A DNA stretch of 63,896 nucleotides, filler included, from Reclinomonas americana ATCC 50394 (GCA_048213135.1; 17 parts of 17 records of this genome joined end to end with filler, not necessarily neighbours in it), one strand, 5' to 3'. Shown: positions 1-41,210, numbered from the whole stretch's first letter. Notes: a model not told the origin generated them from the sequence alone. Program-made: numbers and translations.

Positions 1-202
1 GGTTGCCATCGGGAGTAACGGTGACGGACCTCACCACATCGAGACTCTGAATGATCTGTGCCGATCATTCGCGGTGAGACGCACACACAGCAGCGACATT
101 CGAAGACACGCAAACAATAACTGCACACACGCACGAGCACACGAATGCACGCACAGACACCAACCACGCAAAGTGCGCACACATTCACACCTTTGTTGTC
201 AT
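1..202 (-). CDS. WD40 array gene copy 0, 5' part only (exon1 202-191 MTTK; intron 190-56; exon2 55-1 IIQSLDVVRSVTVTPDGN)
   Basis: Same ATG-ACA-ACA-AAG|GT donor, CTCAC branch-like motif and CAG|ATCATTCAG acceptor as the full copies; cut by the window edge. Confidence 0.85.
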
Positions 203-2401
203 TCTCCGTGCGTGTGTGCGTGTGTGTGCGTGTGTGATTGCTCGCTCCGTTTCCCGCCTTTCTTCTCCCACCTTGCTCCAAGACGCCGTCCATCCCTCGC
301 TGCGCTGCAGCCAGTACCCTACACAGCATACAGCAGTATGAGAGCGATGTGACTTCTTTGATGCATGCGAGCTTTCGAAGACTGACATGGGACTCGTCGA
401 TGAGAAATCGGCAGAATGGACAAGCATGCGCAGGGTGGTGGCTCGAGGTGAAGCTCCGCTGCACCGCGCATGCCCAGCGATACTTCACTTCGACTGGCCT
501 GCATTCTCTCTCAACGAGGACTCGCATGTCGTGCTGCTTGGATACGCAGTTGTGGCCCTGTTGTGCTGATGCCACAGCATTAACGAGAATCTATAACGCA
601 CCGAGTCATCGAAACCTCACACCTCCTTGGATCGGCCCACAGCGAAGCTGACGAGGTGCACGTCATGATGGTACGACGAAGAAGGAGAGCCACAGGAGAC
701 AGGAGAGCAGCGACCAGCACAGCAGCACAGCGATGGAAGAGGCAGCTGTGTTGTGAGACACGCCTCCCTCTCGCCCAGTCACAATCAATGCCTCGTGACT
801 TCAATCACACTCACAGTCGGTCGGTGCATTGTCTCATGCATGTACTGTGTGGCACGGAACCACGTGTCTTCGCATGCCAGTGACGAGTCACTTGCCAGCA
901 CGCCTGTCACACAGAATTGAGTCAGTCAATCTCCAAGTCTCACCAACTTACTCCTCAACACAGATGCAGAACACGTACGCACCAGGCCACGCGCGCGTCT
1001 GCAGTCTCCCATGGCCACCACCATCATTACTTGGCGGCGACAGCAGCAACCAAGAAGCGCACATCATCGATCCGCTCTGACTTGCCAACCGGGATCGAGA
1101 ACGATCCACCGACCAGGCCACCCATCGGAAAACACGACACGCATGTGCACGCACCATGAGTAGATTGCCGAGCACGCGTCTGCAGTCTCCCATGGCCACC
1201 AGCATCATCACTCGACAGAGACGGCGGCAACCAACGTGCGCACATCATCGATCCGCTCTGACTTGCCACCGACCAGGCCATCCATCGCACATCACGTCAT
1301 GCATGTGTACATCCGCCCAGCCGCGTTCTCCATGGTATGCACGACCTGCATGAATGAGGTGAGTGGAGGGAAGAAGGAAAGAAAGATCACGCCGAACAAG
1401 TCCACACACCTGCTTCGTGCATGGTGGGATGCGCATGCGAGTGGGGTGCCAAGTGAGTGAGGTGACAGTCGGCAACGGGCGATGCACAGCACGCCTGTCA
1501 TCGCCACGACATGCTTTCCATGGTCTCTGCATGCCGGTGTGCTGTGAGCAAAGAATGGAGGACGGGGAGAGATATCTGCTCTGTCTCAACGACGAACACC
1601 CCGATCAGCATCTGATGCCAACACGCGTCTGAGCAAGATGCAAGCCAAGTGATGCTTCTGTACACACATCCATCCTGCAAAGGAGAGAGAGAGAAGGAGC
1701 AGAGTCAGAATGCAGGTATGCCACTTCGGAGTCGGGATGCTCACCATGATGGACTGGCAGGATGGTAATCGTAACACGGTGAGCGGACCCGCAGCTCGAC
1801 CTCGAGCGTGTGCGGCAAGGAGGGGCGGATTACTGGGGAAGCAGATAAGCGCACAAAGGAGGGAGACGGTGGAGAAAGAGAAAGAGAGAGATTCAGCACG
1901 GGACAGTGAAGAAGAGAGCGGAATGACATGCATTCTTCAGAACGAACGGAGAATGCCCACGGCGCACAGGCACAATGGGAAGCAGAGCAGTGATGCCAAA
2001 GTGGTGCGCAAAAGAAGACGCGAGGAATAGACAACGGCGACTCGCTCTCCTGAGGCACGTACATGGGCGACGGAAGAAGCACGCACAACAGACAACACAA
2101 CGAGGGGAAAAAACACAACAGCCTCCCAAGTGATTCATCTCGCTCGCATACACAAATGGAGGTGAGAAAGAGGCAAGCATGCAGAGGGAGACGTGCTTCA
2201 CTACCTCTCTCTCACTCACATGAAAGGGGAACACGCACGGGAGAATAATTCTGCATTATCCACGTCGACTTCTCTCCTCTCGTCTGTCATCTCTCTTCCC
2301 CCAGCTGCATCCCGCATGATCACCCGCAACCCCGCGCAGGTCACGAACAACAACTCACAGTAACCAGCAGCCACCGCTCTCCCTCTCTCCGACTCACCAA
2401 C

Positions 2402-3553
2402 TCAGCACCGGAAAAGGACGACCTCGGCATCCTCCGCGATAAAGCAGCGCAGAACCAGCTCGGGAAGGCATCGTGAATCTACTCCTTCCTCCTGCATCTC
2501 CTGCACAGCTCGCATGGCCGAGCGCGCGGCGTCGAGTTCGAGACGAGCGAGGCCACGCGGCGTGGACCACACTCGCACGGTCTTGTCGTAGCCACCCGCA
2601 CTCACAATGTGCTGACCATCGCGAGAGACGGCCACAGACGACACCCATCCGTCATGTCCCACCAACAGTCGCACTTCCTCGCCACTCGCCAGAGACCACA
2701 CCCGAATGGTGCTGTTTCCGCTCCCGCTCACGATGTGCTGAGAGTCAGGGGTAACGGTCACGGACGACACCCACTCAGCCAACCGTCGCACCACCTCTCC
2801 ACTCGCCAGCATCCATACACGCACAGTCTTGTCTTCACCAGCACTTACAATGTGCTGACAATCTGGAGTGACAGTGACAGACGACACATATCCAGTGTGT
2901 CCTTCCAACCGTCGCACCTCCTCCCCGCTCGCCATCAACCACACTCGCACGGTGTTGTCGAAACTGCCGCTCACAATATGCTGACTATCGGGGGTGACGG
3001 CTACAGCGAGCACCCAGTCAGTGTGTCCTTCCATCCGTCGCACCTCCTTGCCACTCGCCAGCGACCACCGCCATACTGTCCTGTCGCAGCTGCCGCTGAC
3101 GATGTGATGACCATCAGGGGTGACTGCGACAGACATCACCATGTCGGTGTGTCCCTCCAGCCGTCGCAGCTCTTCCCCACTCGCCAGTGACCACATCCGC
3201 ACTGTGTTGTCTCCACTTCCACTGACAATGAGTTGGCCATCGGGAGTGACGGCAACAGAAAGCACCACATCAGCGGATCCCTCCAACCGTCGCACTTCTT
3301 CTCCACTCGCCAGTGACCACATTCGAATCGTGTTGTCCTCGCACCCACCCACAATGTGCTTGCCGTCGGGAGTGACGGCGACTGATCGCACCACAGTCGC
3401 GAGACTTTGAATGATCTGCGTCGATCATTCGCGGTGAGACGTACACACACAAACATACACACAAACAACAACCACACACATGCACAAGCACACAAATGCA
3501 CGCACAGACACCAACCACGCACAGTGCGCACACATTCACACCTTTGTTGTCAT
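2402..3553 (-). CDS. 7-repeat WD40 protein, copy A (~341 aa; exon1 3553-3542, intron 3541-3416, exon2 3415-2402)
   Basis: Seven 42-aa repeats of type GHxxxVxSVAVTPDGQHIVSGSxDxTVRVW; splicing the GT-AG intron gives in-frame MTTK-IIQSL; conserved tail ending VVLFRC*. Confidence 0.93.
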
Positions 3554-5561
3554 TCTCCGTGCGTGTAGTGTGTGTGTGTGATTTGCTCGCTCACGATTGT
3601 CACTGTTTCCCGCCTTTCTTCTCCCGCCTTGCTCTGAGACGTCGTCCATCCCTCGCCAGGCTGCAACCAGCACCCCGCACAGCATACAGCAGTATGAGAG
3701 CAATGTGGATTCTTTGATGCGTGCGGGCTTTCGAAGACCGACATGGGACTCGTCGATGAGAAATCGGCAGAATGGACATGCTGGCGACACAAGGTGGCGC
3801 TCCACTGCATCGCGCTGCTGTCCAGCGACACTCTCTTTCAACTGACCTGCATTCTCTCTCAATGAGGACTGGCATGTCGGTCTGCTTGGATACACAACTC
3901 TGGCCCTGTTGTGCTAATGCGACGGCACACCCGAGAATCCATGGAGCACCGAGTCTTCGAAACCTCACACCTCCTTGGATCGGCCCACAGCGAAGCTGAC
4001 GAGGTGCACGTCATGATGGTACGACGAAGAAGGAGAGTCACGCGGAACAAGAGAGGAGCGACCAGCACAGCAGCACAGCGATGGACGAGGCAGCTGCGTC
4101 GTGAGGCTCGCCTCTCACCCAAATCTCAGTCAATGCCTCGTGCCTTCAATCACACTCACAGTCGGTCGGTGCATTGTCTCATGCATGCACTGTGTGGCAC
4201 GGAACCACGTGTCTTCGCATGCCAGTCACTTGCCAGCACGCCTGCCGCACGGAATTGAGTCAGTCAATCTCCAAGTCTCACCAACTTACTCCTCAACGCA
4301 GATGCAGAACACGTACGCACCAGGCCACGCGCGCGTCTGCAGTCCCCCATGGCCACCACCATTGTCACCTGGCAGTGACGGCAGCAACCAAGGTGCGCAC
4401 ATCATCTATTCGTTCCGACCTGCCAGCCGGGATTGAAAACGATCCACCGATCAGGCCATCCATCGCACATCACGACACACATGTGTACATCCACCCAACC
4501 ACGCTCTCCATGACGTGCACGGCCTGCACGAATGAGGTGAGTGGAGAGAAGGAAGAGAGAGAGATCACGAAGAACAGGGCCACACAACTGCTGAGTGCAT
4601 GGTGGGATGCGAGTGGGGAGCCAAGTGAGTGAGGTGACGGTCGACAACGAGCAATGCACATCACGCCTGTCATCGCCACGACATGCTTTCCATGGTCTCT
4701 GCATGTCGGTGTGCTGTGAGCAAAGAATGGAGGACGGGGAGAGATATCTGCTCTGTCACACGTGGCGAACACATCGATCAGCACCTGATACCAACACGCG
4801 TTTGTCAAGAGGCAAGCCAAGGGACGCTCACACAACCATCCTGCAAGGGAGAGAGAGAGAGAGAGAGCAGAGTCAGTATGCAGGTATGCCACCTCACACA
4901 CTTCGGCATCGGGAAGCTCACCATGATGGACTGGCAGGATGGCAATTGGAACACGGTGAGCGGACCAGCAGCTCGACCTCGAGCGTGTGCAAGGAGGGGC
5001 GGATTACTGGGGAATCAGATGAGCGCACAAAGGCAGGGAGATGGCGGAGAAAGAGATAGACTCTGCAGGAGGCAGGAAAAAGAGAGCTGAAAGACAGGCA
5101 TTCTTCAGAACGAAAGGAGAATGCCCACGGCGCACGTGCACGATGGGAAGCAGAGCAGTGATGCCAAAGTGGTGCGCAAAAGAAGATGCGAGGAAATAGA
5201 CAATGGCGACTTGCTCTCCTGAGGCACGTACATTAGCGACGAAGGATGCACGCGCAACAGACATCACAACGAGGGGAAATGAAATCACAGGCTCCAATTG
5301 ATTCGTCTCGCTCGCACACACACACTGAGGTGAGAAAGAGTCACGTAAACAGCGAGAGACATGCTTCACGAAGGCACACTCACATTCACATGACAGGGCA
5401 ACAAACACAGAGAACAATTCTTCATCAACGATCTCACTGTCTTCCTCTGTCGTCCTCTCTTCCCCCACTTGCATCCCGCACAACCACCCACTCTTCCTCG
5501 CAAGACACGACAAACAACTCACACTCACAGCAGCAACCCTCTCTCCCTCCGACTCACCAAC

Positions 5562-6720
5562 TCAGCATCGGAAAAGGACGACCTCGGCATCCTCGACGAT
5601 GAAGCAGCGCAGAACCAGCTCGGGAAGACATCGTGAATCTTCTTCCTCCTCCTGCACCTCCTGCACGGCGTGCATGGCCGAGCGCGCGGCGTCGAGTTCG
5701 AGGCGAGCAAGGCCACGCGGTGTGGACCACACTCGCACGGTCTTGTCGTATCCGCCGGCACTCACAATGTGCTGACCATCGGGAGAGACGGCCACAGACG
5801 ACACCCATCCAGTGTGTCCCTCCAACTTTCGTACTTCCTCGCCGCCACTTGCCAGAGACCACATCCGCACGGTGCTGTCCTCACTTCCGCTCACGACGTG
5901 CTGACCATCGGGAGTAACAGCGACAGACGACACCCAGTCAGTGTGTCCCTCCAACTGTCGCACCTCCTCCCCGCTCGTAACTGACCACACTCTCACCGTG
6001 CTGTCCCTACTGCCACTCACGACGTGTTGACCATCGGGGGTGACGGCGACAGACATCACACCTTCAGTGTGTCCTTCTAATCGTCGCACCTCTTCGCCGC
6101 TCGCCAGCGACCATACCCGCACTGTCTTGTCTCCACCCCCACTCACAACGTGCTTGCCATCGGGGGTGACACCGACTGACCACACCGAAATAGCGTGTCC
6201 CTCTAACCGTCGCACCTCCTCGCCACTCTCCAGCGACCACACTCGCACTGTCTTGTCGAAGCCGCCGCTGACGACGTGCTGTCCATTGGGGGTGACGGCG
6301 ACTGACAACACCGCACTGGTGTGTCCCTCAAACCGTCGCACTTCTTCTCCACTTGCCATCGACCAGACACGTAGGGTGTTGTCTCCACACCCACTCACTA
6401 TCTGTTGTCCATCAAGAGCGATGGCGACAGAGAACACCGCGCCATCGTGTCCCTCCAGCCGTCGCACCTCCTTGCCACTCGCCAGAGGCCACACACGAAC
6501 GGAGCTGTCCATGCATCCACCAACAATATGCTTGTTATCGGGAGTGACAGTGACGGACAGCCCCGAAGAAGCGAGACTCTGAATGATCTGTGCCGATCAG
6601 TCGCGGTGAGGCGCACATGCACAAACACACAAACAACAACCACACACATGCACGAGCACACCAATGAACGCACAGACACCAAACACGCAAAAGTGCACAC
6701 ACTCACACCTTTGTTGCCAT
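5562..6720 (-). CDS. 7-repeat WD40 protein, copy B (~345 aa; exon1 6720-6709 MATK, intron 6708-6588, exon2 6587-5562)
   Basis: ORF 5562..6512 extends in frame to the CAG acceptor at 6588; seven WD repeats and the same tail. Confidence 0.93.
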
Positions 6721-8725
6721 TCTCCGTGTGTGTTTGTATTGTGATTTGCTCGCTCACGATTGTCACCGTTTCCCGCCTTTCTTCTCCCGCCTTGCTCTGA
6801 GACGTCGCCCATCCCTCGCCAGGCTGCAGCCAGTACGCCACACAACATACAGCAGTATGGCTTCTTTCATGCGTGTGGGCTTTTGAAGACCGACATGGGA
6901 CTTGTCGATGCGAAATCGGCAAAATGGACAAGCAGGGTGTTGGTGACACAAGGTGGCGCTCCACTGCATCGCGCTGCTGTCCAGCGACACTCTCTTTCGA
7001 CTGACCTGCATTATCTCTCAACGAGGACTGGCATGTCGGGCTGCTTGGATGTGCAACGTTGGCCCTGCACCCGAGAATCCAATGAGCACCGAGTCAACGA
7101 CATCTCCTTGGATCGGCCCACAGCGAGGTTGATGAGGGCACGATGATGGCAAACGGTACAGGAGAGGAGCGACCAGCACAGCAGCTCAGCGGTGGACGAG
7201 GCAGCTGCGTCATGAGACTCGTCTCCCCTCACCCAAATCACAGTCAATGCCTCATTCAATCACAGTCACAGGTCAGTGAATCGTCTCATGCATGTACTGT
7301 GAAGCACGGAACAACATGTGGTCATGTATGCCAGTGACGAGTCACTTGCCAGCACGCCTGTCACACAGAATTGAGTCAGTCAATCCCAAGTCTCGCCAAC
7401 TTATAATTACTCCTCAACGCAGAAGCAGAACACGCACGCACTATGTGTTGCTGGCCTAGCACGTGTCTACCGTCACCCACGGCCACCACCAGCATCACTC
7501 GACAGAGACGGCGGCAGCCAAGGCGCGCACATAATCTATCCGTTCCGACCTGCCACGCGGGATTGAAACGATCCACCGACCAGGCCACCATGTCGCACAT
7601 CACGGCACGCAGGTGTACACCCACCCAGCCACGCTCTCCATGGTCTGCACGACCTGCATGAATGAGGTGAGTGGAGGGAAGGAGAAAAAAGAGATCACGA
7701 CGAACAAGGCCACACACCTGCTTTGTGCATGGTGGGATGCGAGAGTTCGTCAGTGAGACAGAGCAGATGTCTCTCCTCCCTCCATTCTTCGCTCACATTG
7801 CACCGGCATGCAGACACCATGGAAATATGTGCTTGCCGTTAACGTTGGCCGTGACAATGAACGGTGTTCTGTGCATTGCCCATGGCCGGCTTACACCCAC
7901 TCACTCGGCTCCCCACCACCGATCAGCACCTGATGCCAACACGCGTTTGGGCAAGATGCAAGCCAAGGGACGCTTCTGCACACACATCCATCCTGCAAGG
8001 GAAGAGAAAGAGAGAGAAAGTAGAGTCAGCATGCAGTCATGCCACCTCACACACTTCGGTGTCGGGAAGCTCACCATGATGGACTGGCAGGATGGCAATC
8101 GGAACACGATGAGCGGACCAGCAGCTCGACCTCGAGCGTGTGCGGCAAGGAGGGGTGGATGGCTGGGGAAGCAGATAAGCACACAAAGGAGAGAGATGGT
8201 GGGGAAAGAGAGAGACTCTGCAAGGGACGGAGAAAGAGGGCTTCAGAGCGGAATGACAGGCATCCTGCAGAGTCGGAAGGAGAATGTCCGCGGCGCACAG
8301 GCACAATGGGAAGCAGAGCAGTGATGCCAAAGTGGTGCGCAAAACAAGACGCAAGGAAACAAACATCGGTGGCTCGCTCTCCCGAGGCACATGCATGCAC
8401 GAAGAAAGATGCACGCACACAAACATCACAAAGAAACAAAATAGACACAAGAGACTCCCAAGTGATTCATCGCGCTCGCACACACAAATTGATGTGAGGA
8501 AAAGGCACGCCTACAGAGAGAAATATCCTTCACGACCGCACACTCACATTCACATGTCAGGGCAGCAAGCACGAAGAGCAATTCTGCACCGTCAACAATG
8601 ATTTCTCGTACAGGCATTCTGTTCCCCCACCTGCATCCCGCATGTTCACCAACTCTCCCTCGCAAGACACGAAAAAACAACTCACGATCACCAGTAGCCA
8701 CCTTCTCTCCCTTGGACTCACCAAC

Positions 8726-9891
8726 TCAGCACCGGAAAAGGACGACCTCGGCATCCTCGACAATGAAACAGCGCAGAACCAGCTCGGGAAGGCATCGTGA
8801 AACTTCTTCATCCTCCTGCATCTCCTGCACAGCTCGCATGGCCGAGCGCGCGTCATCGAGTTCGAAACGAGCAAGGCCACGCGGTGTGGACCACACTCGC
8901 ACGGTCTCGTCGTAGCCACCCGCACTCACAATGTGCAGACCATCGGGAGAGACGGCAACAGACGACACCCATTCAGTGTGTCCCTCTAACCGTCGCACTT
9001 CCTCGCCACTTGCCAGAGACCACACCCGACTGGAGCCGTCCCCGCTCCCGCTCACGATGTGCTGTCCATTTGGGGTGACGGCGCCAGACCACACCGCACC
9101 AGTGCCTCCTTCCAATCGTCGCACTTGGTCTCCACTCTCTAGCAACCACACTCGCACGGTGTTGTCCCGACTCCCACTAAAAATATGCCGACAATCTGGA
9201 GTGACAGCGACAGAGAGCACCCATCCAGTGTGTCCCGCCAACCGTCGCACCTCCTCCCCACTCGCCATCAACCACACTCGCACTGTGTTATCGTGGCTAC
9301 CACTCACTATATGCTGACTATCGGGGGTGACGGCGACAGACCGCACCGTGTCGGTGTGTCCCTCCAGCCGTCGCACCTCTTCTCCACTCGCCAGTGACCA
9401 CACCCTCACTGTGTTATCGTAGCTGCCGCTGACAATGTGTTGATCATCAGGGGTAACGGCGACAGACGTCACCGCACTGGTGTGTCCCTCCAGCCGTCGC
9501 TCTACTTCCCCACTCACCAGCGACCACACACGCACGGTACGGTCTCCACTTCCACTGACGATATGTTTGCCATCTGGGGTGACGGCGACAGACAACACAC
9601 CACCAGTGTGTCCATCCAGCCGTCGCACCTCCTTGCCACTCGCCAGAGACCACATTCGAACGGTGCTGTCCATGCACCCACCAACAATGTGCTTGCCATC
9701 GGGAGTGATGGTGACAGACCGCACTGCAGCGGGACTCTGAATGATCTGTGCCGATCACCCGCGGGTGAGACGCAAACGCAGCAACATTCGGAGACACACA
9801 AACAACAACCGCACTCACGCACGAGCACACGAATGCACGCACAGACACCAACCACGCAAAAGTGCGCACACATTCCCACCTTTGTTGTCAT
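8726..9891 (-). CDS. 7-repeat WD40 protein, copy C (~343 aa; exon1 9891-9880, intron 9879-9746, exon2 9745-8726)
   Basis: ORF 8726..9724 plus conserved splice sites; seven WD repeats and the same tail. Confidence 0.93.
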
Positions 9892-11846
9892 TCTCCGTGT
9901 GTGATTTGCTCGCTCGGGATTGTCACCGTTTCCCGCCTTCCTTCTCCCGCCTTGCTCTGAGACTTCGTCCATCCCTCGCCTGGCTGCAGCCAGCACCCCA
10001 CACAACAGACGGTAATGTGAGAACGATGTGGCTTTGTTGATGCGTGTGAGCTTTCGAAGACCGATTTGGACTTGTCGATGGGAAATCGGCAGAATGGACA
10101 TGCTGGCGACACAAGGTGGCGCTCCACTGCACCGTACATGTCCAGCGACACACTCTTTTGACTGACCTGCATTCTCTGCCGACGAGGACTGGCATGTCGG
10201 GCTGCTTGGATGTGCAGCTGTGGCCCTGCACCCGAGCACCGAGTCAACGACACCTCATCTCCTTGGATCGACCCACAGCGAGGTTGATGAGGGCACGATG
10301 ATGGCAAACGGTACAGGAGAGGAGCGACCAGCACAGCAGCTCAGCGGTGGACGAGGCAGCTGCGTCATGAGACTCGCCTCCTCTTACTCAAGTCACAATC
10401 AATCCCTCATGCCTTCAATCACACTCACAGTCGGCCGGTGAATCGTCTCATGTACGCACTGTGTGGCACAAAACCACGTGTCTTCGCACGCCAGTCACTT
10501 GTCAACACGCCTGTGCTCAGATCACACACAGAATAGAGTCAGTCAATCTCCAAGTCTCATCAACTTGCTCCTCAACGCAGATGCAGAACACGTACGCACC
10601 ATGTATAGCTGGCCTCGCACGTGTGTGCAGTCTTCCATGGCCACCACCATGGTCACTCGGCAGTGAGAGCGACAACCAAGGTGCACACACCATCGATCCG
10701 CTTCGACTTGCCAGTCGGTATTGAAAACGATCCACCAACCAGGCCATCCATCGCACAGCACGACACACATGCGTACACCCACCCAGCCACGCTCTCCATG
10801 ACCTGCACGACCTGCAGGAATGAGGTGAGTGGAAGGGAGGGAGGAAAGAGAGATCAAGACGAACAAGTCCACACACCTGCTGAGTTCACGGTGGGATGCG
10901 AGTGGAGAGCCGACTGAGTGAGGTGACAGCCGGCAGCGGGCGATGCACAGCACGCCTGCAATCATTACGGAACAACGAGGGGGACCTGCCCCTAAGGTGC
11001 CTGCATGTCGGTACAATGTGAGCGAAGAATGGAGGAAGGAGAGAGATATCTGCTCTAGTCTCACGTGACAAACACACCGATCAGCACCTGATACCAACAC
11101 GCGTTTGTCAAGAAGCAAGCCAAGGGACGCTCACACAACCGTCCTGCAAGGGAGAGAAGGAGCAGAGTCAGTATGCAGGTATGCCATGTCACACACTTCG
11201 GCATCGGGAAGCTCACCATGATGGACTGGCAGGATGGCAATCGGAACACGGTGAGCGGACCAGCAGCTCGACCTCGAGCGTGTGCGGCAAGGAGGGGCAG
11301 ATTACTGGGGAATCAGATGAGCGCACAAAGGCAGGGAGACGGTGGAGAAAGAGAGAGACTCTGTAAGGGAGAGAGAGAGAGAGAGTTGCAAGACATGCAT
11401 TCTTCAGAGTCGGAAGGAGAATGCCCACGGCGCACACGCACAATGGGAAGCAGAGCAGTGATGCCAAGGAAGTGTGCAAAAGAAGACGCGAGGAAATAGA
11501 CAACGGTGACTCGCTCTCCTGAGGCACACACATGCACGACGAAAGAAGCACGCACAACAGACATCACAACGAGACAAAAAACGCAAGAGACTCCCAGGTG
11601 ATTCATCGAGCTTGCACACAAAATAGAGGTGAGAAAGAGACACGCACACAGAGGGAGACATGCTTCACGCCCATTCACTCCCATTCACATGACAGGGCAA
11701 CAAACACGGGAGAAGAATTCTTCATCAACAACCTCTCTCTCTGCCTCTATCGTCCTCTCTTCCCCCACCCACTCTCCCTCGCAAGTCACGAAAAACACCT
11801 CACAATCACCAGCAGCCATCTCTCTCTCTCCCTCCGACTCACCGAC

Positions 11847-13033
11847 TCAGCACCGGAAAAGGACGACCTCGGCATCCTCGACAATGAAGCAGCGCAGAAC
11901 CAGCTCGGGAAGACACCGTGAATCTTCTTCTTCCTCCTGCATCTCCTGCACAGCTTGCATGGCCAAGCGCGCGGCGTCGAGTTCGAGGTGAGCAAGGCCA
12001 CGCGGCGTGGACCACACTCGCACGCTATTGTCGTGGTCGGCGCCACCCGCACTCACAATGTGCTGACCATCGGGAGAGACGGCGATGGATGACACCCATC
12101 CAGTGTGTTGCTTCAACTGTCGTACTTCCTCTCCACTTGCCAGAGACCACACCCGAATGGTGCCATCCCCGCTCCCGCTCACGACTTGTTGGCCGTCGGG
12201 AGTGACAGCGACAGACGACACCCAGTCAGTGTGTCCCTCCAGTCGGCGAATCTCTTCTCCACTTGCCAGTGACCACTTCCGGACAGTGTTGTCCCAGCCC
12301 CCGCTAACAATGTGTCGACCATCGGGAGTAACAGCGACGGCGCACACCCATCCAGTGTGTCCCGCCAACCGTCGCACCTCCTCCCCACTCGCCATTAACC
12401 ACACCCGCACTGTGTTATCGCAGCTACCACTCACTATATGCTGACTATCGGGAGTGACGGCGACAGAACGCACTCGAAGTGTGTGTCCCTCCAGCCGTCG
12501 CACCTCCTCCCCACTCGCCAGAGACCACACCCGCACTGTGTTGTCATAGCCGCCGCTGACAATATTAATGTGCTGGCCATCGAAGGCGACGGCGACGGAC
12601 ATTACAAAGCTAGTGTGTCCCTCCAGCCGTCGCACCTCCTCGCCACTCTCCATCGACCACACACGCACGGTACAGTCTCCACTTCCACTCACGACATGCT
12701 GGCCATTGGGGGTGACGGCGGCAGAGAACACCCCGCCAGCGTGTCCCTCCAGTCGTCGCACCTCTTCCCCACTTGCCAAAGACCACACTCGAACGGTACT
12801 GTTCAAGCACCCACCGACAATGTGCTTGCCGTCGGGAGTGATGGTGACGGACCGCACTGCAGCGGGACTCTGAATGATCTGTGCCGATCACTCGCAGTGA
12901 GACGCACGCAGCAGCAATCAAAGACAAACATAACAACACAAGAACAACAACCGCACACATGCACGAGCACACGAATGCACGCACAGACACCAACCACGCA
13001 AATGTGCGCACACACTCACACCTTTGTTGCCAT
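11847..13033 (-). CDS. 7-repeat WD40 protein, copy D (~347 aa; exon1 13033-13022 MATK, intron 13021-12879, exon2 12878-11847)
   Basis: ORF 11847..12857 plus conserved splice sites; seven WD repeats and the same tail. Confidence 0.93.
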
Positions 13034-14665
13034 TCTCCGTGTGAGTGTTATGTGTGTGTGTGCGTTGCTCGCTCTGGATTGTCACCGTTTCCCGCCTATC
13101 TTCTCCCGCCTTGCTCTGAGACGTCGTCCATTCCTCGCCAGGCTGCAACCAGCACCCCACACACCATACAGCAGTGTGTGAACGATGTGGCTTCTTTGAT
13201 GCGCGTGGGCTTTTGAAGACCGACACAGGACTCGTCCACGTGCAGCGAAGTCGGCAGAATGGACATGCAAGATTGTGGCTCGAGGTGGCGCTCCACTGCA
13301 CCGTACTTGTCCAGCGACACTCTCTTTCGACTGACCTGCATTCTCTCTCAACAAGGACTGGAATGTCGTGCTGCTTGGATACGCAGCTGTGGCCCTATTG
13401 TGCTGATGCCACGACACACCCGAGAATCCAATGAGCACCGAGTCTTGAAACCGCACGCCTCCTTGGATCGGCCCACAGCGAGGTTGAGGTGAGACAATGA
13501 AGAAGGGGAGTCACAGGGAACAGGAGAGGAGCGACCAGCACAGCAGCAAAGCGATGGAAGAGGCAGCTGTGTTGTGAGACTTGCCTCCTCTCACCCAAAT
13601 CACAATCAATGCTTCGTGCCTTCAATCACAGTCACATTCGGTCGGTGAATCGTCTCACGCATGTACTGTGACGCATGAAACCACGTGTCAACATGCCAGT
13701 GGCCAATCACTTGCCAGCACGCGCGCCTGTGACACAGAATGGAGTCAGTCAATCGTCAAGTCTCGCCAACTTGTTCCTCAACGCGAGTGCAGAATATGCA
13801 CGTGCACGCACCACGAGTTGCTGGCCTCGCACGTGTGTGCAGTCTTCCATGGCCACCACCATCATCACTCGGCAGAGACGGCGGCAACCAAGGCGCGCAC
13901 ATCATCGATCCGCTCTGACCTGCCAGCCGGGATTGAAAACGATCCACCGACCAGGCCACCCATCGGGACACACGACACGCATATGTACACCCACCCAACC
14001 ACACACTCCATGGCGTGCACGACCTGCACGAACGAATTGAGTGGGAGGGAAAGAGGAAAGAAAGATCACGCTGAACAAGTCCACACACCTGCATCGTGCA
14101 TGATGGGATTCAGGTGTGGAGCCGACTGAGTGAGGTGACAGCCGGCAGCGGGCGATGCACAGCACGCCTGCAATCATCACGGAACAACGAGAATGGCATG
14201 CCCCTAAGGTGCCTGCATGTCGGTACAATGTGAGCGAAGAATGGAGGAAGGAGAGAGATATCTGCTCTAGTCTCACGTGACAAACACACCGATCAGCACC
14301 TGATACCAACACGCGTTTGTCAAGAGGCAAGCCAAGGGACGTTCACACAACCATCCTGCAAGGGAGAGAAGGAGACGAGTCAGTATGCAGGTACGCCACC
14401 TCACACACTTTGGCGTCGAGAAGCTCACCATGATGGACTGCCCAACGCGATGGCAGTCAGAACACAGTGAGCGGACCAGCAGCTCGACCTCGAGCGTGTG
14501 CGGGAAGCATGGGGCACATGACTGGGGAATCAGATGAGCGCACAAGGGAGGGAGACGGTGGGGAAAGAGAGAGACTCTGCAAGGGAGAGAGAGAGAGGGA
14601 GAGAGCTGCAAGACATGCATTCTTGAGTCGGAAGGAGAATGCCCACGGCGCACAGGCACAATGGG

Positions 14666-22774: not shown

Positions 22775-23459
22775 TGACGGGCTCGTTTTGGTCGAAGCCG
22801 GCCAGCGCCGCATCGACCATGTCGTCGACCTCCATGATCATTTCGGGCGGGAAGCCGGCGACATCGACGCCGGCCCGGGCCCAGATCTCGGTACGGGTGG
22901 CGCCGGGAAGCACCGCCTGGACCCTGACGCCGGCCGGTTCGAGCTCCTTCTGCAAGGATAGGCTGAGGTTCAGCACATAGGCCTTGGTGCCGCTGTAGCT
23001 GCCGTTGAACAGCTCCGGCGCGAGCGCCAGCACCGAGGCGACATTGATGATCGTGCCCTGCTTGCGGGTCACGAAATTGCGAGCCGCGGCGGCAGCGAGA
23101 CGGGTCGGGGCGATGACGTTGAGCTCGATCATGGCCTGGAAGCGGTCGATGTCGCCGTCGACCAGCGTGCCGGAGACCGACATGCCGGCATTGTTGACGA
23201 GCAGGGTCAGGCTTTCGTCCTCACGCAGGCGCCGCTCGACTTCGGCAAGATCCGCCTTCGCCGTCAGATCGGCCTTGAGCCATTCGACCTTGCGGCCGGT
23301 CTCGCGCCGAAGGCGCTCGGCCAGTGCGGTGAGCCGGGCCTCGTCGCGGGCGACGAGGACGAGATCATAGCCGCGGTGGGCCAGTCTGTCGGCGTAGACG
23401 GCGCCGATTCCGGTGGAGGCGCCGGTGATGAGGGCGGTGCCGAGCTGCTGCGTTGCCAT
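22775..23459 (-). CDS. Short-chain dehydrogenase/reductase, 3'-truncated
   Basis: TGASTGIG, NNAG and YSGTK motifs. Confidence 0.95.
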
Positions 23460-23492
23460 GTCGAATTCCTGTTGGATTTCAGCGTTGGTTTT

Positions 23493-23539
23493 TCATGATG
23501 ATTATCATGATTGAATTTACATGATCAGCATCATATAAA
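23493..23539. promoter_or_regulatory. Two putative TetR operators (ATGAT-N4-ATCAT) between divergent SDR and TetR
   Basis: TCATGAT-GATT-ATCATGA at 23493-23510 and TTTACATGAT-CAGC-ATCATATAAA at 23516-23539. Confidence 0.75.
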
Positions 23540-23580
23540 GAGTCAAGGGTTGAATTGACGATTATCGAAGGAGCCGATCG

Positions 23581-24156
23581 ATGCGGGTGAGCCGCGAACA
23601 GATGGCGGAGAACCGCGAGCGCATTCTCGACACGGCAGCGACGCTGTTCCGTGAGCGCGGTTTCGACGGAGTCGGCGTCGCCGATGTGATGAAGGCGGTC
23701 GGCCTGACCCATGGCGGCTTCTATGGGCACTTTTCGTCGAAGGACGATCTCGCGGCCCAGGCCCTCGGGCGCGCCTTCGTCCACTCCGGTCAATCGGCTG
23801 CCGAGGCGAGGGCGTCTGAGCCGCAAGCGCCGCGGCGGGCGATCATCGATCGCTATCTGTCACCGGCGCATCGCGACGATCCCGGCCATGGCTGTCCGGT
23901 CGCGGCGCTTGGCAGCGACACTGCGCGCCAGGGCGAGGCGTCGCGCCTTGCTGCGACGGAGGGTGTGCGGGCGGCGATCAAGGGTCTCTGCGCCATCACG
24001 CCGGGCGCAACCGCAGACGAGCGCAGAACCAGCGCCATTGCGAGCTACGCCACCTTGGTCGGCGCGCTCGTCCTTGCCCGCATGGTCGACGACGCGGCGC
24101 TGTCGGACGAGATCCTGGCCGCGGCCCGAGCGGAGCTTTGCTCCGCCGAGGCGTGA
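23581..24156 (+). CDS. TetR/AcrR family transcriptional regulator
   Basis: MRVSREQMAENRERILDTAATLFRERGFDGVGVADVMKAVGLTHGGFYGHFSSKDDL; AAGGAG RBS. Confidence 0.95.
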   Translation: MRVSREQMAENRERILDTAATLFRERGFDGVGVADVMKAVGLTHGGFYGHFSSKDDLAAQALGRAFVHSGQSAAEARASEPQAPRRAIIDRYLSPAHRDDPGHGCPVAALGSDTARQGEASRLAATEGVRAAIKGLCAITPGATADERRTSAIASYATLVGALVLARMVDDAALSDEILAAARAELCSAEA

Positions 24157-24261
24157 CGGGCGCAAGCTGCATTGCCCGCCTTGTTTGCGCCATTGCCGCG
24201 ATGCACCTAGATTTGCAGGGCTGCAGTTCGCCCCGGCTAAGAGCGCGAATCGAGGATCGGC

Positions 24262-25095
24262 ATGAAGACGTATCGCGGCGGGATCGCAGGCCTGGCGGTG
24301 ATGGCGGCGACGGGAGCCTGGGCGCAGAGTCCGGCCCCTGCTTCGGCGGGGCGTGTCGTTCTGGTGCCGCACCGGGCTGTCTATGATCTCGTCCTCGATG
24401 ACGGCAAGCCCTCGCGCGACATCACCACGGCACGCGGCCGCATCGCCTTCGACTTCTCCGGCGATGCCTGCGACGGCTATGCGCTCTCGTTTCGGCAGGT
24501 CACCGAGCTGACCAGCGAGGGCGGGCCGCGGGTGATCGATGCGCGCACGACGAGCTTCGAGGAAGGCGATGCGAAGAGCTATCGCTTCAAGACCGAAAGC
24601 TCGGCTGCCGGCGCGCCGGCCGATATCGTCGACGGCACGGCGAAGAAGGGCGAGGCCGGCTACGAGGTGCAGCTGCGCGCGCCCAAGGCCGAGACGCATC
24701 GCGAGCCGAGCGCCGCGATGTTCCCGAACGAGCAGATGAAGGCGGTGATCCAGGCGGCGCGCGAGGGCAAGAACACCCTCAATGTCCGTCTCTATGATGG
24801 CGCCAATTCCGGCAAGGACGTCTACGACACGCTCTCGGTGATCGGCCGCAAGATCACGACGCCGGCCGCGGAGGCGCCGCTGCGCAAGCCGGAATTCGCG
24901 AAGCTCGCGCGCTGGCCGGTGACGATCTCCTATTTCAAGGTCGGTTCCGGAGAGAGCACACCGGCTTACACCGTGTCCTTCGAGCTCTATGAGAACGGCG
25001 TCACTGGCGCGATCCGGCTGGATTACGGCTCGTTCGCCCTGCGCGGCACGCTCACGCGTCTGGATCTGCTTCCGGCGAGCGACTGCTCGAAGTAG
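24262..25095 (+). CDS. eipB: Cell envelope integrity protein EipB (DUF1849)
   Basis: Signal peptide, [33 protein letters not shown]...LDYG and a C-terminal Cys; an alphaproteobacterial family. Confidence 0.9.
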
Positions 25096-26348
25096 TGCGA
25101 CGGCGCGTATCGCGCAGCGACAGACCCTTCTCGATCGCGGCATCGCCGAATTTGGCGCGGACCTTGTCGAGGGCGCTTTCCATCGCTTTCAGTCTGGGCG
25201 TCTGCTGGTCGGCGAGATCGCCGCGATCGGCCTCGGCCGGATCGGAGAAATCGCTCATGCCGATGCCGATCAGCCGGTAGCGCGGCCCGGTGCATTCGCG
25301 CTTGAGCAGGTCGCGTCCCGCGGAAAACAAGCGCGCCGCGAGCTGGCTCGGCTCGGGCAGGCGGGCTGCGCGGGTGATGATGTGGAAGTCGTGGGTCTTG
25401 AGCTTGAGCGTAACGGTACGCCCGGCGAGCTCCTGAGCCTTCAATCGCTGCGAGGTCCTCTCGCAGAGCCGCCACAGGATCGGCTCCAGCTCCTCAAAGC
25501 GGGCGAGATCGACATCCAGCGTCGTCTCGGAGGAGACAGTCTTGGCCTCGTGCTCGACCGTGACCTTGCGCGGGTCGATGCCGAGCGCGAGGTTCCTGAG
25601 GCGCGGCCCGTCCTTGCCGACGAGGCGGTAGAGCGTCGCGATCTCGGCCTTGGCGAGGTCGCCGATGACGCGGAAGCCCGACTGCGCCAGCTTCGCCGCG
25701 CCGGCCTTGCCGATGCCGGGGATCATCCCGACCGGCTTCTGGGCCAGGAAGGCAACAGCCTCGGCCTGGCCGATGATCGAGAAGCCGCGGGGCTTGTCCA
25801 GGTCGGAGGCGACCTTGGCGAGGAACTTGGCATAGGAGAGCCCGACCGAGATGGTGATGCCGATCTCGTCCTCGATCCGGCGCTGGAAACGGGCGAGGGT
25901 AAGCGCCGGGCTGGCATGGTGCAGCCGTTCGGTTCCGCCGAGATCGAGGAAGGCCTCGTCGATCGAGAGCGGCTCGACCAATGGCGTCAGCTCCTGCATC
26001 AATCTGCGGACCTGGCGGCCGACAGCAACGTATTTCGCCATGTCCGGCTTGATCACGGTGGCTTCCGGGCAGGCCTTCAGTGCCTGGAACATCGGCATGG
26101 CCGAGCGCACGCCGGACATGCGGGCGATGTAGCAGCAGGTCGAGACCACGCCGCGCTTGCCGCCGCCGATGATCACCGGCTTGTCGAGCAGGCTGGGATC
26201 GTCGCGCTTCTCGATCGCGGCATAGAAGGCGTCGCAATCGATATGGGCGAGGTGCAGGCTGTCGCGCTCGGCATGGCGCAGCAGTCGCGGCGAACCGCAG
26301 GATGGGCAGCGGCGCACCGGCGCGCGCGCCTCGTCATGATCGCGCAGG
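25052..26348 (-). CDS. dinB: DNA polymerase IV (Y family), missing a few N-terminal residues
   Basis: [36 protein letters not shown]-terminal CPSCGSPR; frame open to the gap. Confidence 0.96.
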
Positions 26349-26448
26349 NNNNNNNNNNNNNNNNNNNNNNNNNNNNNNNNNNNNNNNNNNNNTTAATTAA
26401 TTAANNNNNNNNNNNNNNNNNNNNNNNNNNNNNNNNNNNNNNNNNNNN

Positions 26449-27980: not shown

Positions 27981-27992
27981 GAACCATCTCCG

Positions 27993-41178: not shown

Positions 41179-41210
<32 letters not shown>

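What the first reader, a model, noticed from the sequence alone, without database searches (positions are those of the whole stretch)
1..14665. Tandem array of stand-alone WD40 propellers with a hypervariable binding face: candidate diversified recognition (immune-like) system in a protist
Seen: at least five head-to-tail genes. The four complete ones each have exactly seven near-identical 42-aa blades. The scaffold is constant (SVAVTPDGQH.VSG..D.TVRVWSLASGEEVRRLEGH) while the same few positions change radically. After GH: TDMVM, TDWVL, TGYVS, DGAVF, TSAVL, AISVW, TEGVM, TDTVR, TLRVR, TSFVM, TGWVC. Around SxD: GDN, CDR, FDN, EDK, RDS, YDN, HDN, WDN. All coding indels keep frame, whereas the spacers carry arbitrary indels. 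Known: these positions form the top, ligand-binding face of WD40 propellers, and this pattern marks the HET-E/HET-D (HNWD) fungal NLR sensors. Inference: here the sensor is free-standing, with no NACHT or effector domain, and is amplified as whole genes, which suggests a receptor repertoire for variable, possibly non-self ligands.
Basis: partly seen in the sequence, partly recalled or inferred. Interest (0 to 1): 0.8.

Follow-up and report, generated by a model that had tools for sequence, protein, structure and literature searches.

The report
Tandem stand-alone WD40 propeller genes
A protist contig carries a head-to-tail row of small genes, each encoding one seven-bladed WD40 propeller whose partner-binding face differs between copies while the rest is conserved; this points to a family of adaptors with different targets, but an immune role is not shown.

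Summary
The array is real. Contig 1 (1-14665) of a window glued from 17 contigs holds four complete copies and one cut copy of a 3.1-3.2 kb unit, all on the minus strand. Each complete copy has a 1.0 kb open frame for a seven-bladed WD40 propeller plus a conserved tail of about 53 residues. Five positions per blade are hypervariable. They include the three generic top-face hotspots and match the four HET-E/HET-D selected positions.

- **Blades:** they are not near-identical; mean identity is 61-62%.
- **Selection:** dN/dS at the variable sites is 0.7-1.0 against 0.2 for the scaffold. That is elevated but never significantly above 1.
- **Start codon:** the frames lack a conserved ATG. A mini-exon (ATG plus three codons) and a 121-143 nt intron, conserved in all five units, would supply one. 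This is inferred, with no RNA data.
- **Domains:** no NACHT or effector domain was found in the spacers, so "free-standing" holds as far as tested.
- **History:** blades 1-6 show 2-5 times more synonymous divergence than blade 7, the tail and the spacers. This implies blade exchange or old cores with homogenised flanks.
- **Relatives:** a tail-bearing relative comes from a Reclinomonas americana transcript-derived entry, so the host is possibly a jakobid.

Verdict: a new variant of a known kind. The immune reading is untested.

The parts
11847..12878 (-). Copy D, exon 2: seven WD40 blades, C-terminal tail (last 53 codons, 11850-12008) and TGA stop (11847-11849)
   Evidence: Open frame; Pfam WD40 E=1.5e-76 with 7 stretches; coordinates
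12879..13021 (-). Copy D, putative intron (143 nt, GTGTGA...CTCAC...CACAG)
   Evidence: Only strong-donor model conserved in all five units; CTCAC lies 23 nt before the acceptor; inferred, no RNA
13022..13033 (-). Copy D, putative coding part of exon 1 (ATG plus 3 codons)
   Evidence: inferred
8726..9745 (-). Copy C, exon 2: seven blades, tail (8729-8887) and stop
   Evidence: AlphaFold model md825ae71b071 of frame 9754-8729: 7 blades, with the N-terminal strand closing blade 7
9746..9879 (-). Copy C, putative intron (134 nt)
9880..9891 (-). Copy C, putative coding part of exon 1
5562..6587 (-). Copy B, exon 2: seven blades, tail (5565-5723) and stop
6588..6708 (-). Copy B, putative intron (121 nt)
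6709..6720 (-). Copy B, putative coding part of exon 1
2402..3415 (-). Copy A, exon 2: seven blades (blade 5 lacks three residues around GH), tail (2405-2563) and stop
3416..3541 (-). Copy A, putative intron (126 nt)
3542..3553 (-). Copy A, putative coding part of exon 1
2..202 (-). Fifth copy, cut by the contig end: putative exon 1 (191-202), intron (56-190) and first 18 codons of exon 2 (2-55)
203..2401 (.). Spacer between the fifth copy and copy A (includes an extra insert of about 120 nt)
   Evidence: Unit alignment; no Pfam domain
3554..5561 (.). Spacer between copies A and B
   Evidence: p-distance to other spacers 0.13-0.19; frame-breaking indels; no Pfam domain
6721..8725 (.). Spacer between copies B and C
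9892..11846 (.). Spacer between copies C and D
13034..14665 (.). Spacer upstream of copy D, cut by the contig end, so the array probably continues
   Evidence: Aligns with the other spacers

Best explanation
**What it is.** Contig 1 is part of a tandem array, open at both ends, of small genes of a microbial eukaryote with short introns, possibly a jakobid. Each gene most likely has two exons: a mini-exon with ATG plus three codons, an intron of 121-143 nt, and one 1.0 kb exon.

**The product.** The protein is 341-347 residues and has a single domain. It is a seven-bladed WD40 propeller closed by its own N-terminal strand, followed by a strongly conserved tail of about 53 residues (a predicted helix, then a hydrophobic Cys-containing end).

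**How it evolves.**
- The scaffold of every blade is held by purifying selection.
- The five residues per blade that line the top (partner-binding) face are free to differ, both between blades and between copies.
- The copies arose by whole-unit tandem duplication.
- Spacers, blade 7 and the tail are about 0.2 substitutions per site apart. Blades 1-6 are 2-5 times more diverged at synonymous sites.
- So blades 1-6 have either been exchanged among blades or copies, or are old cores whose flanks were later homogenised.

**Inferred mechanism.** The proteins form a set of adaptors. The constant tail and scaffold would dock to a common partner, and the copy-specific top face would bind different ligands.

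**Shown and inferred.** Shown: anatomy, fold, location of variability, selection regime, uneven divergence. Inferred: the splicing model, expression in this organism, ligand binding, the role of the tail. An immune or non-self function is one possible use and is not supported by any test here.
For: **Array and frames**
- Four complete frames and one cut frame, period about 3.1-3.2 kb.
- Paralog proteins are 75-82% identical.
- The units are too different to be an assembly duplicate: spacer p-distance is 0.13-0.19.

**Coding**
- No stop in four frames of about 1 kb, and 6 of 6 coding indels are in frame.
- Scaffold dN/dS is 0.16-0.26 between copies.
- 22 of 37 scaffold columns are individually under negative selection (uncorrected P<=0.05).

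**Fold**
- AlphaFold pLDDT 90, 7x4 strands, with residues 2-6 forming the fourth strand of blade 7.
- Best Foldseek matches are the PkwA WD40 domain 5yzv (TM 0.97 by target, 40% identity), designer 7-bladed WRAP-T, WDR5 and the Nostoc repetitive propeller 2ymu.

**Variable face**
- Five columns at 2.3-3.0 bits against 1.5 or less elsewhere.
- 11-21.5 inferred nonsynonymous changes per variable column against 8 or fewer in any other.
- Between copies, 4 of 35 top-face positions are identical in all four genes against 167 of 256 scaffold positions (Fisher P=9e-10).
- The positions equal published hotspots.

**Gene model**
- ATG(A/G)CAACAAAG|GTG(T/G)GA...CTCAC (-23/-24)...CAG|ATC is conserved in 5 of 5 units. 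The only other model shared by all five has a weak GTCTCA donor.
- A kinase gene on a contig of like composition uses AAG|GTGTGC donors and short GT-AG introns (read by eye; Pkinase hit).

**Stand-alone**
- Searches found no further domain or long shared frame in the spacers.

**Uneven history**
- Scaffold dS by blade is 0.41, 0.56, 0.52, 0.62, 1.05, 0.54 and 0.18; the tail is 0.20.
- The C-D pair ranges from 6/126 differences in blade 4 to 38/126 in blade 5 (heterogeneity P=1e-5).
- Transition/transversion ratio is alike in blades (1.50) and spacers (1.58), so there is no special mutational signature.

**Family elsewhere**
- A profile of the tail found 2 proteins in 1.84 billion.
- One is 68% identical over blade 7 plus tail. 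Its source names it EP00694_Reclinomonas_americana_P005839 / EC795383.1.p2.

**Eukaryotic origin**
- The 4-mer profile of contig 1 correlates 0.35-0.88 with contigs 29047 onward, which carry RPN2, HEAT, IFRD and kinase genes (0.55 or more for nine of the ten).
- It correlates 0.24-0.31 with six bacterial-type contigs.
Against: **No expression evidence.** No RNA or read evidence exists for this organism: no run was listed and no genome is held. Expression and the intron are therefore unproven.

**Intron length.** The proposed intron (121-143 nt) is about twice as long as the 59-76 nt introns read in the kinase gene.

**Selection.**
- dN/dS at the variable sites is 0.38-1.07 between copies, 0.94 pooled over blade pairs, 0.71 on a tree, and 0.48-0.92 among closely related blade pairs.
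- No site is significant for positive selection (all P>=0.46).
- The variability is thus equally what relaxed constraint would give.

**Mosaic signal.** Heterogeneity of divergence across blades 1-6 is clear for 1 of 6 gene pairs, marginal for 3 (P 0.046-0.07) and absent for 2.

**Age of the blades.** Blades are only 61-62% alike, with inter-blade dS about 0.9. The constant scaffold is therefore mainly old purifying selection, not recent concerted evolution.

**The tail.** It has no Pfam family, is modelled at low confidence (pLDDT 36-63) and no partner is known.
Confidence: 0.55

Rival explanations
1. This is an ordinary paralog family of WD40 scaffold proteins. The top-face differences reflect relaxed constraint or slow subfunctionalisation, not a repertoire built for many ligands.
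For: - dN/dS at the variable positions is about 0.7-1.0 and never significantly above 1, even in little-diverged blade pairs.
- Blades are old (inter-blade dS about 0.9) and only 61-62% alike.
- Blade number is fixed at seven.
- Top faces of blades 1, 2, 6 and 7 are partly shared between copies.
Against: - Variation is sharply confined to the published binding hotspots: 5 columns against all others.
- Those positions are rich in Trp, Tyr, Phe, Arg and Met: 13 W, 6 Y, 5 F, 14 R and 6 M of 140. Pure drift would not favour these.
- Only 4 of 35 top-face positions are shared by all four copies.
- The copies are kept intact as a tandem array.
Confidence: 0.3
2. The WD40 exon is only the 3' part of a larger gene. 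A NOD, kinase or effector part would be encoded further upstream or joined by trans-splicing, so the sensor is not free-standing.
For: - The open frames lack a conserved ATG and start right after a stop.
- The closest longer relatives, up to 57% identical, are multidomain NACHT, nSTAND, NB-ARC, kinase or CHAT proteins with WD40.
- The host has many short exons, which an ORF-based scan could miss.
Against: - Each unit ends with a stop, and only about 2.1 kb lies before the next WD exon.
- That spacer is full of frame-breaking indels: 81 of 108 are not multiples of 3.
- It has no frame-consistent open stretch over 132 nt shared by all units.
- It gives no Pfam domain on either strand.
- A conserved ATG mini-exon with donor, CTCAC and acceptor explains the missing start.
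- The N-terminal strand just after the acceptor is the closing strand of the propeller.
Confidence: 0.07
3. The copies are not expressed as proteins. They would be a decaying gene satellite, or silent donor cassettes for gene conversion into expressed WD40 genes elsewhere.
For: - No in-frame ATG is conserved inside the long exon.
- No RNA evidence could be obtained.
- Blade-level mosaicism is seen in at least one pair.
Against: - Scaffold dN/dS is about 0.2, tail dN/dS is 0.26, 6 of 6 indels are in frame, and there is no stop in four frames of about 1 kb despite 17-24% nucleotide divergence.
- A tail-bearing relative exists as a transcript-derived entry of Reclinomonas americana.
Confidence: 0.05
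4. The array is an assembly artefact, or it belongs to a contaminant rather than to the eukaryote represented by the other contigs.
For: - The window mixes bacterial-type and eukaryotic contigs.
- The contig breaks inside the repeat at both ends.
- No reads could be laid on it.
Against: - Units differ by 13-19% in spacers and 17-24% in blades, so they are distinct loci rather than a duplicated read pile.
- The 4-mer profile and dinucleotide microsatellites match the eukaryotic contigs, not the bacterial ones.
Confidence: 0.03

Closest known systems
Transcript-derived ORF of Reclinomonas americana (EukProt EP00694_P005839, from record EC795383.1; protein P0243)
   Same: It has the same last blade and the same C-terminal tail motif. 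It is 68% identical over 108 residues, including ...SRCLPE(L/M)VLRCFIVE.... This is the only close relative found.
   Different: - It is only a 116-residue fragment.
- Its tail runs about 9 residues further, instead of ending right after the shared motif.
- The top-face residues of its last blade differ.
- Whether it comes from the same species as the window is unknown.
- That EC-prefixed records are ESTs is my recollection.
HNWD/NWD genes of Podospora anserina (het-e, het-d, het-r; fungal NLRs)
   Same: - 42-residue consensus-type WD40 repeats.
- Variability sits at the same two pairs of positions (D-A loop and B-C turn) on the top face (PMC1805685, passages).
- There are signs of exchange between repeats.
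- Fungal NACHT-WD40 proteins are among the best longer hits, at 47-57% identity.
   Different: - No NACHT or HET domain.
- Repeats are 61-62% alike, not about 85% (PMC4986451).
- Seven blades in every copy, with no repeat-number variation.
- Positive selection is not detected.
- Diversity is spread over tandem whole genes, not over long repeat arrays inside one gene.
Highly or moderately repetitive prokaryotic WD40 proteins (Hu et al. 2017, PMC5587647; structures 5yzv PkwA, 2ymu Nostoc)
   Same: - Best structural matches: 5yzv at 40% identity, rmsd 0.9.
- Consensus SPDG-type blades with many DHSW tetrads (3-6 of 7 blades).
- A conserved scaffold with diverse hotspot sites, as that paper notes for its HR class (passages).
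   Different: - Internal identity of 0.61-0.62 is below their HR threshold of 0.7, so it falls in their 'moderately repetitive' class.
- This case is eukaryotic, single-domain and tandemly amplified as genes.
- The prokaryotic proteins are mostly fused to kinase or STAND modules.
Substrate-receptor families with a constant docking motif and a variable WD40 face (F-box/WD40, SOCS-box/WD40, DCAF). This is an analogy from my own knowledge.
   Same: The architecture idea is shared: one propeller with a target-specific top face plus a short constant element that plugs into a shared machine.
   Different: The tail matches no F-box, SOCS-box or other Pfam family, and the blades read W-S, not the WDxR motif of DCAFs. 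This is resemblance of logic only, and membership is not claimed.
Tandem propeller genes with homogenised ends and divergent middle blades in a Babeliales bacterium
   Same: Head-to-tail propeller paralogs whose ends are alike while the middle blades are much more diverged (against my).
   Different: That case is bacterial, secreted and fused to a beta-solenoid, and was read as stable old cores. I did not check it.

Membership tests
WD40 beta-propeller (Pfam PF00400), seven-bladed | Repeated WD40 units detected by the family profile above its cut-off | tested here: met
   E=1e-70 to 1e-80, 228-260 bits against a cut-off of 27, with 6-7 stretches in each of 4 of 4 frames
WD40 beta-propeller (Pfam PF00400), seven-bladed | Closed propeller of seven four-stranded blades | tested here: met
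   AlphaFold model with pLDDT 90 and 28 strands, N-terminal strand completing blade 7; Foldseek TM 0.95-0.97 to solved 7-bladed WD40 domains. This is a prediction, not a solved structure.
HNWD/NWD fungal NLR (HET-E/HET-D type) | NACHT nucleotide-binding domain N-terminal to the repeats | tested here: not met
   No NACHT or any other domain above cut-off in 47 minus-strand and 74 plus-strand spacer frames; no shared open stretch over 132 nt. Very short exons could escape this test.
HNWD/NWD fungal NLR (HET-E/HET-D type) | High internal repeat conservation (about 85% amino-acid identity; PMC4986451) | tested here: not met
   Mean 0.61-0.62 over 7 blades and 0.67-0.69 over blades 1-6
HNWD/NWD fungal NLR (HET-E/HET-D type) | Positive diversifying selection at four top-face codons per repeat | tested here: inconclusive
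   The same positions are the hypervariable ones, but dN/dS is 0.71-0.94 pooled and no site is significant. My tests were counting methods on 28 blades of four genes, without PAML or HyPhy.
HNWD/NWD fungal NLR (HET-E/HET-D type) | Concerted evolution and repeat-number polymorphism | tested here: inconclusive
   Blade number is 7 in 4 of 4 copies. Out-of-register nearest neighbours exist (e.g. A2-C3) and one strongly mosaic pair, but no second strain or species is available.
Highly-Repetitive (HR) WD40 proteins of Hu et al. 2017 | Internal repeat identity of at least 0.7 | tested here: not met
   0.61-0.62 against the definition in PMC5587647. It falls in their moderately repetitive class (0.4 or more).
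Family defined by the conserved C-terminal tail (this array plus P0243 and P0244) | Last WD40 blade followed by ...STP.G..R.EL... helix ... R.LP..VL.CF..E.A.V... | tested here: met
   4 of 4 copies are 86-90% identical over 59 residues. The profile finds P0243 (E=3e-21) and P0244 (E=9e-6) and nothing else in 1.84 billion proteins; pairwise alignments.
Cullin-RING substrate receptors (F-box, SOCS-box, DCAF) | F-box or SOCS-box profile match, or WDxR motifs | tested here: not met
   Tails alone scanned at E up to 10 gave 0 relevant families in 4 of 4; strand C ends W-S-L, not W-D-x-R.

The most novel reading that the evidence does not exclude
A deep-branching protist, possibly a jakobid, keeps a repertoire of sensor-only WD40 propellers. 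They belong to the sequence class that fungi and bacteria fuse to NLR/STAND ATPases. Here they are uncoupled from any ATPase, amplified as tandem whole genes, and diversified by exchange of blades. A constant C-terminal tail would hand bound ligands, for instance prey, symbiont or viral proteins, to a shared downstream machine. That would be an NLR-independent, propeller-based recognition system.
Probability: 0.15. Interest if true: 0.8.

Novelty: new variant of a known kind. Interest (0 to 1): 0.45.

Why it matters
Consensus-type WD40 propellers with a conserved scaffold and variable binding hotspots are known as the sensor ends of fungal NLRs and of bacterial STAND and kinase proteins. Here the same kind of propeller stands alone and carries its own conserved tail. 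It is multiplied as whole genes in a row in a little-studied eukaryote, and the only close relative found comes from a jakobid.

If the copies bind different ligands, this would show a second way to build a recognition repertoire from WD40 blades: gene arrays instead of long repeat arrays inside one receptor. It would also give a tractable set of natural one-scaffold, many-faces binders.

If not, it remains a clean example of uneven divergence inside tandem paralogs, with alike flanks and diverged repeat cores.

Tried and rejected
- **Whole genome of the window:** none is held, so family size could not be counted.
- **RNA and DNA sequencing runs:** none was listed, so no reads were laid.
- **Rfam and tRNA scans of the whole window:** nothing found.
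- **Organism identification through an RPN2 fragment:** the best hit was only 39% identical (Aphanomyces), which is not informative.
- **Near-length homolog search:** 3542 hits among 8000 scored candidates, none of the 120 listed above 56% identity.
- **Metagenome scan with blade 7 plus tail:** 80 loci kept of 121 relatives. Best-segment identity was 65% or less and most matched only the WD part. I did not inspect them one by one.
- **ESM Atlas on the tail:** best score 0.77, below any useful level.
- **RING-finger idea for a conserved CPFCR motif about 350 nt upstream of the WD exon:** two weak Pfam hits (E=0.007 and 0.097, far below cut-off) among 47 frames, which is chance level. The motif is out of frame with its would-be first half in 3 of 5 units. 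Rejected.
- **Alternative gene model:** ATGGACGAC|GTCTCA with an intron of 216-244 nt is conserved but has a weak donor, so it is less likely.
- **Positive selection:** pairwise Nei-Gojobori, a parsimony count on a blade tree, and close blade pairs only. None gave dN/dS above 1.
- **Hypermutation signature:** transition/transversion ratio is the same in blades and spacers.
- **Other copies in the remaining 16 contigs:** none, and no spacer copy either.
- **Earlier findings of this scan:** none by place or by sequence.
- **Gcp1-3 WD40 proteins of jakobids (PMC8134430, passages):** these are Pex7-like and unrelated to this family.
- **Not used:** complex prediction and a second structure job, because no binding claim depends on them.

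Full report
**Setting.** The window is not one stretch of genome. It is 17 contigs joined by N44-TTAATTAATTAA-N44 linkers, and the finding covers exactly the first and longest contig, 1-14665. No whole genome is held for the window. No sequencing run could be listed for it. Everything below therefore rests on this contig, the other 16 contigs and public collections.

Six contigs (14766-28946; GC 0.64-0.69) are bacterial in style. They carry, for example, an isochorismatase-family gene and a TetR-type regulator. The ten contigs from 29047 on have GC 0.52-0.62 and dinucleotide microsatellites. They carry eukaryotic genes: RPN2 N-terminal domain, HEAT repeats, IFRD, and a protein kinase broken by short GT-AG introns. 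The 4-mer profile of contig 1 correlates 0.35-0.88 with this second group (0.55 or more for nine of the ten contigs) and 0.24-0.31 with the bacterial group. Contig 1 is therefore most likely nuclear DNA of the same intron-bearing eukaryote, in an assembly that also holds bacterial DNA.

**The observation.** On the minus strand there are four stop-to-stop open frames of 340-346 codons, at 3424-2405, 6596-5565, 9754-8729 and 12887-11850, spaced 3.13-3.17 kb apart. A fifth unit begins at the low end of the contig and is cut after 22 predicted codons. The high end of the contig ends inside a spacer. The array is thus open on both sides and its true length is unknown.

Tandem Repeats Finder sees 126-nt periodicity with 70-76% matches inside each frame. 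Pfam finds 6-7 WD40 repeats in each. I cut each protein into seven units and aligned all 28. Five of the 42 well-filled columns stand out with 2.3-3.0 bits of entropy:
- the two residues after GHT, and the residue after the following Val (columns 47, 48 and 2);
- the residues either side of the Asp in S-x-D-x-T (columns 23 and 25).

No other column exceeds 1.5 bits.

Coding indels between the three complete units are all in frame (6 of 6). Only 27 of 108 indels in spacers and the putative intron are multiples of three.

Three points needed correction:
- The blades are not near-identical. Mean identity within a protein is 0.61-0.62, with a range of 0.37-0.83.
- The fifth gene is a stub.
- None of the long frames begins with a conserved start codon. 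Each starts directly after a TGA with (S)(A/T)QIIQS.

**Gene model.** I searched all five units for an upstream ATG, an open path to a GT donor, and an AG acceptor that joins in phase to the WD frame, and kept only models at the same alignment columns in all five. Two remained.
- The better one is ATG(A/G)CAACAAAG | GTG(T/G)GA(A/G)T ... CAG | ATCATTCA. It gives four codons (Met, Thr/Ala, Thr, Lys), an intron of 121-143 nt, and then Ile-Ile-Gln-Ser.
- The other has a weak GTCTCA donor and an intron of 216-244 nt.

- The first intron carries frame-breaking indels.
- It has the motif CTCAC 23-24 nt before the acceptor in 5 of 5 units.
- In the kinase gene of another contig I read, by eye, an AAG|GTGTGC donor and CTCAC about 20 nt before two acceptors.
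- In the structure model, the residues just after the acceptor form the strand that closes the propeller. Translation must therefore start at or before that point.

The model is inferred, since there are no RNA data. With it the products are 341-347 residues.

**Is anything else encoded in the unit?** The 2.1 kb between a stop and the next mini-exon is 81-87% identical between units. It is riddled with indels that break every frame.
- The longest stretch that is open and frame-consistent in all units is 132 nt, against 1020 nt for the WD exon.
- Such stretches have pN/pS of 0.4-0.8.
- I scanned 47 of the 102 minus-strand frames of 45 or more codons (those in the three complete spacers) and 74 of the 99 plus-strand frames of 50 or more codons. 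None reached a Pfam cut-off.
- A conserved CPFCR motif gave two RING-finger hits at chance level and is out of frame with its neighbours in three of five units.

So there is no sign of a NACHT, kinase or effector part. Very short exons could in principle escape these tests.

**The protein.** AlphaFold, run on an alignment of the four copies and 21 database hits, gives a confident seven-bladed propeller with pLDDT 90, and 94 or more up to about residue 290. Its fourth strand of blade 7 is the N-terminal AQIIQ. After it come a helix (residues 296-315, pLDDT 55-63) and a last 25 residues below 50.

The nearest solved structures are:
- the WD40 domain of Thermomonospora curvata PkwA (5yzv, 40% identity, rmsd 0.9);
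- designed symmetric 7-bladed WRAP-T proteins;
- WDR5;
- the repetitive Nostoc propeller 2ymu.

By sequence, the best database proteins reach only 56-57% identity and cover the WD part only. Among the longer ones are fungal NACHT-WD40 proteins, one of them named HET-E-1 by its source. There are also cyanobacterial and Chloroflexi nSTAND, NB-ARC and CHAT proteins, and WD40 kinases. The propeller therefore belongs to the consensus SPDG-type class that is typically a sensor module of STAND proteins.

The tail is the most conserved part, 86-90% identical between copies with dN/dS 0.26. It has no Pfam family.

**Where the variable residues sit.** In the model, columns 47 and 48 are the last two residues of the D-A loop, column 2 is the second residue of strand A, and columns 23 and 25 flank the Asp of the B-C turn.
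- Wu et al. 2012 (PMC3419727; abstract and passages read) define the top-face interaction hotspots from the pattern (V/L/I)-R1-R2-(V/L/I) and the tetrad Asp. These are R1, R1-2 and D-1, which are my columns 2, 48 and 23.
- Paoletti et al. 2007 (PMC1805685; abstract and passages) found positive selection in het-d/het-e at positions 7 and 9 (d-a loop) and 25 and 27 (b-c turn), on top of the propeller. The spacing is identical to 48/2 and 23/25.

**Selection.** With Nei-Gojobori counts between positionally matched blades of the four genes:
- scaffold codons give dN/dS 0.16-0.26;
- the 35 variable codons give 0.38-1.07;
- pooled over all 378 blade pairs the values are 0.21 and 0.94.

A parsimony count on a blade tree gives:
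- 11-21.5 nonsynonymous changes at each variable column, against 8 or fewer elsewhere;
- pooled dN/dS of 0.71 against 0.25;
- no column with an excess of nonsynonymous change (all P>=0.46);
- 22 of 37 scaffold columns with a deficit (uncorrected P<=0.05).

To avoid saturation I repeated the count on the 12 blade pairs under 16% nucleotide distance. The ratio was 0.92, falling to 0.80 without blade 7 and to 0.48 for four independent pairs.

The variable sites therefore evolve three to four times faster than the scaffold and about as fast as silent sites. Positive selection is not demonstrated.

Against pure drift, these positions are rich in Trp, Arg, Tyr, Phe and Met. Only 4 of 35 are the same in all four copies, against 167 of 256 scaffold positions (P=9e-10).

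**Uneven history along the unit.** Spacers differ by 13-19%, and the mini-exon plus intron by 7-14%. Blade 7 and the tail have dS of 0.18 and 0.20. The scaffold codons of blades 1-6 have dS of 0.41, 0.56, 0.52, 0.62, 1.05 and 0.54.

Blade 5 has no near relative anywhere on the contig (0.26-0.32 to its positional partners, 0.21-0.24 to its nearest blade). Blade 4 of copies C and D differs at 6 of 126 sites. Some nearest neighbours are out of register, for example A2 with C3.

Heterogeneity across blades 1-6 is strong for C-D (P=1e-5), marginal for three pairs and absent for two. The transition/transversion ratio is the same in blades and spacers, so a special mutational process is unlikely.

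Two readings fit:
- exchange of blades among the mutually similar blades 1-6 and with copies outside the contig;
- old propeller cores whose flanks were homogenised later.

I cannot separate the two readings with four copies.

**Relatives and host.**
- A profile of the 59-residue end of the four proteins was scored against 1.84 billion representative proteins and found two hits.
- P0243 (E=3e-21) is 68% identical over the last blade and the tail. Its source names it EP00694_Reclinomonas_americana_P005839, built from record EC795383.1. That this accession type is an EST is my recollection.
- P0244 (E=9e-6, 47% identical) comes from an unnamed assembly.

The family thus exists outside this contig, and at least one member appears to be transcribed in a jakobid. 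Jakobids are grown on bacteria, which would fit the bacterial contigs; this point is from my own knowledge. Whether the window is from Reclinomonas or another protist is open. No further copy lies in the other 16 contigs.

**Comparison with known systems.** The array works like the variable-faced WD40 sensors of fungal NLRs and of repetitive bacterial WD40 proteins in one respect: a conserved scaffold with variable hotspots. It is not a member of either.
- It lacks the NACHT domain.
- Its repeats are 61-62% alike, not about 85% (PMC4986451, passages), and below the 0.7 of the HR class (PMC5587647, passages).
- Blade number is fixed.
- Selection above neutrality is not shown.

What is unusual is the packaging: a sensor-type propeller on its own, with a private conserved tail, multiplied as tandem genes in a protist. 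My two literature searches listed no paper on free-standing tandem WD40 genes with variable faces. A third search on jakobid nuclear genomes turned up only the unrelated Pex7-like Gcp1-3 WD40 proteins of jakobids (PMC8134430, passages). Three searches cannot establish absence from print.

I read the array as a family of stand-alone adaptor propellers with copy-specific binding faces and a common docking tail (confidence 0.55). The main rival is an ordinary paralog family with relaxed top faces (0.3). I rate it as a new variant of a known kind and of moderate interest.

Noticed in passing
window 14666-14765 and 15 further places: The window is a chain of 17 separate contigs joined by N44-TTAATTAATTAA-N44 linkers. 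Features must not be read across these joints.
   Followed up: yes
window 14766-28946 (six contigs): These contigs are bacterial in type (GC 0.64-0.69, no microsatellites, 4-mer correlation 0.24-0.31 with contig 1). Examples are an isochorismatase-family gene at 15121-15786 (-) and a TetR-type regulator at 15799-16149 (+). They are probably from bacteria living with the eukaryote or contaminating the assembly.
   Followed up: partly
window 44994-46131, minus strand: A CaMK-like protein kinase gene is split by at least four short introns of about 59-76 nt, mostly GT-AG. One apparent donor is GC. One donor is AAG|GTGTGC, and CTCAC lies about 20 nt before two acceptors. This served as the local standard for splice signals.
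   Followed up: partly
window 2402-3415, 5562-6587, 8726-9745, 11847-12878: The 1.0 kb WD40 exon has no intron, while the kinase gene on a contig of like composition has an intron every 100-150 nt. Its nearest relatives are bacterial and fungal STAND-type WD40 domains. Acquisition by gene transfer or retroposition followed by amplification is conceivable but untested.
   Followed up: no
about 350 nt upstream of each WD exon, e.g. within frames window 3539-3913 (-) and 6766-7017 (-): A conserved ...ACPFCR(F/L)... motif gives weak RING-finger hits (PF24921, E=0.007 and 0.097, far below cut-off). Frames are inconsistent between units, so it is probably non-coding, possibly a relic.
   Followed up: partly
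unit alignment columns 383-473, about 400 nt downstream of each stop codon (e.g. near window 5090-5180 in the spacer below copy B): This block of about 90 nt is open in all three frames in all units and is better conserved than its surroundings (pN/pS 0.39 in one frame). It may be a 3' UTR or regulatory element.
   Followed up: no
window 39450-41353 and 48800-50038: Long CT/GA-rich low-complexity tracts translate as Ser/Leu/Pro/Phe runs in several frames. They are likely intronic or intergenic simple sequence of the eukaryote.
   Followed up: no
window 53459-62033: The longest other eukaryotic contig carries HEAT-repeat frames (55200-56198 +) and an RPN2 N-terminal domain fragment (60014-60625 +). 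The best database match of the RPN2 fragment is only 39% identical, so the organism has no close relative in the protein collection searched.
   Followed up: partly
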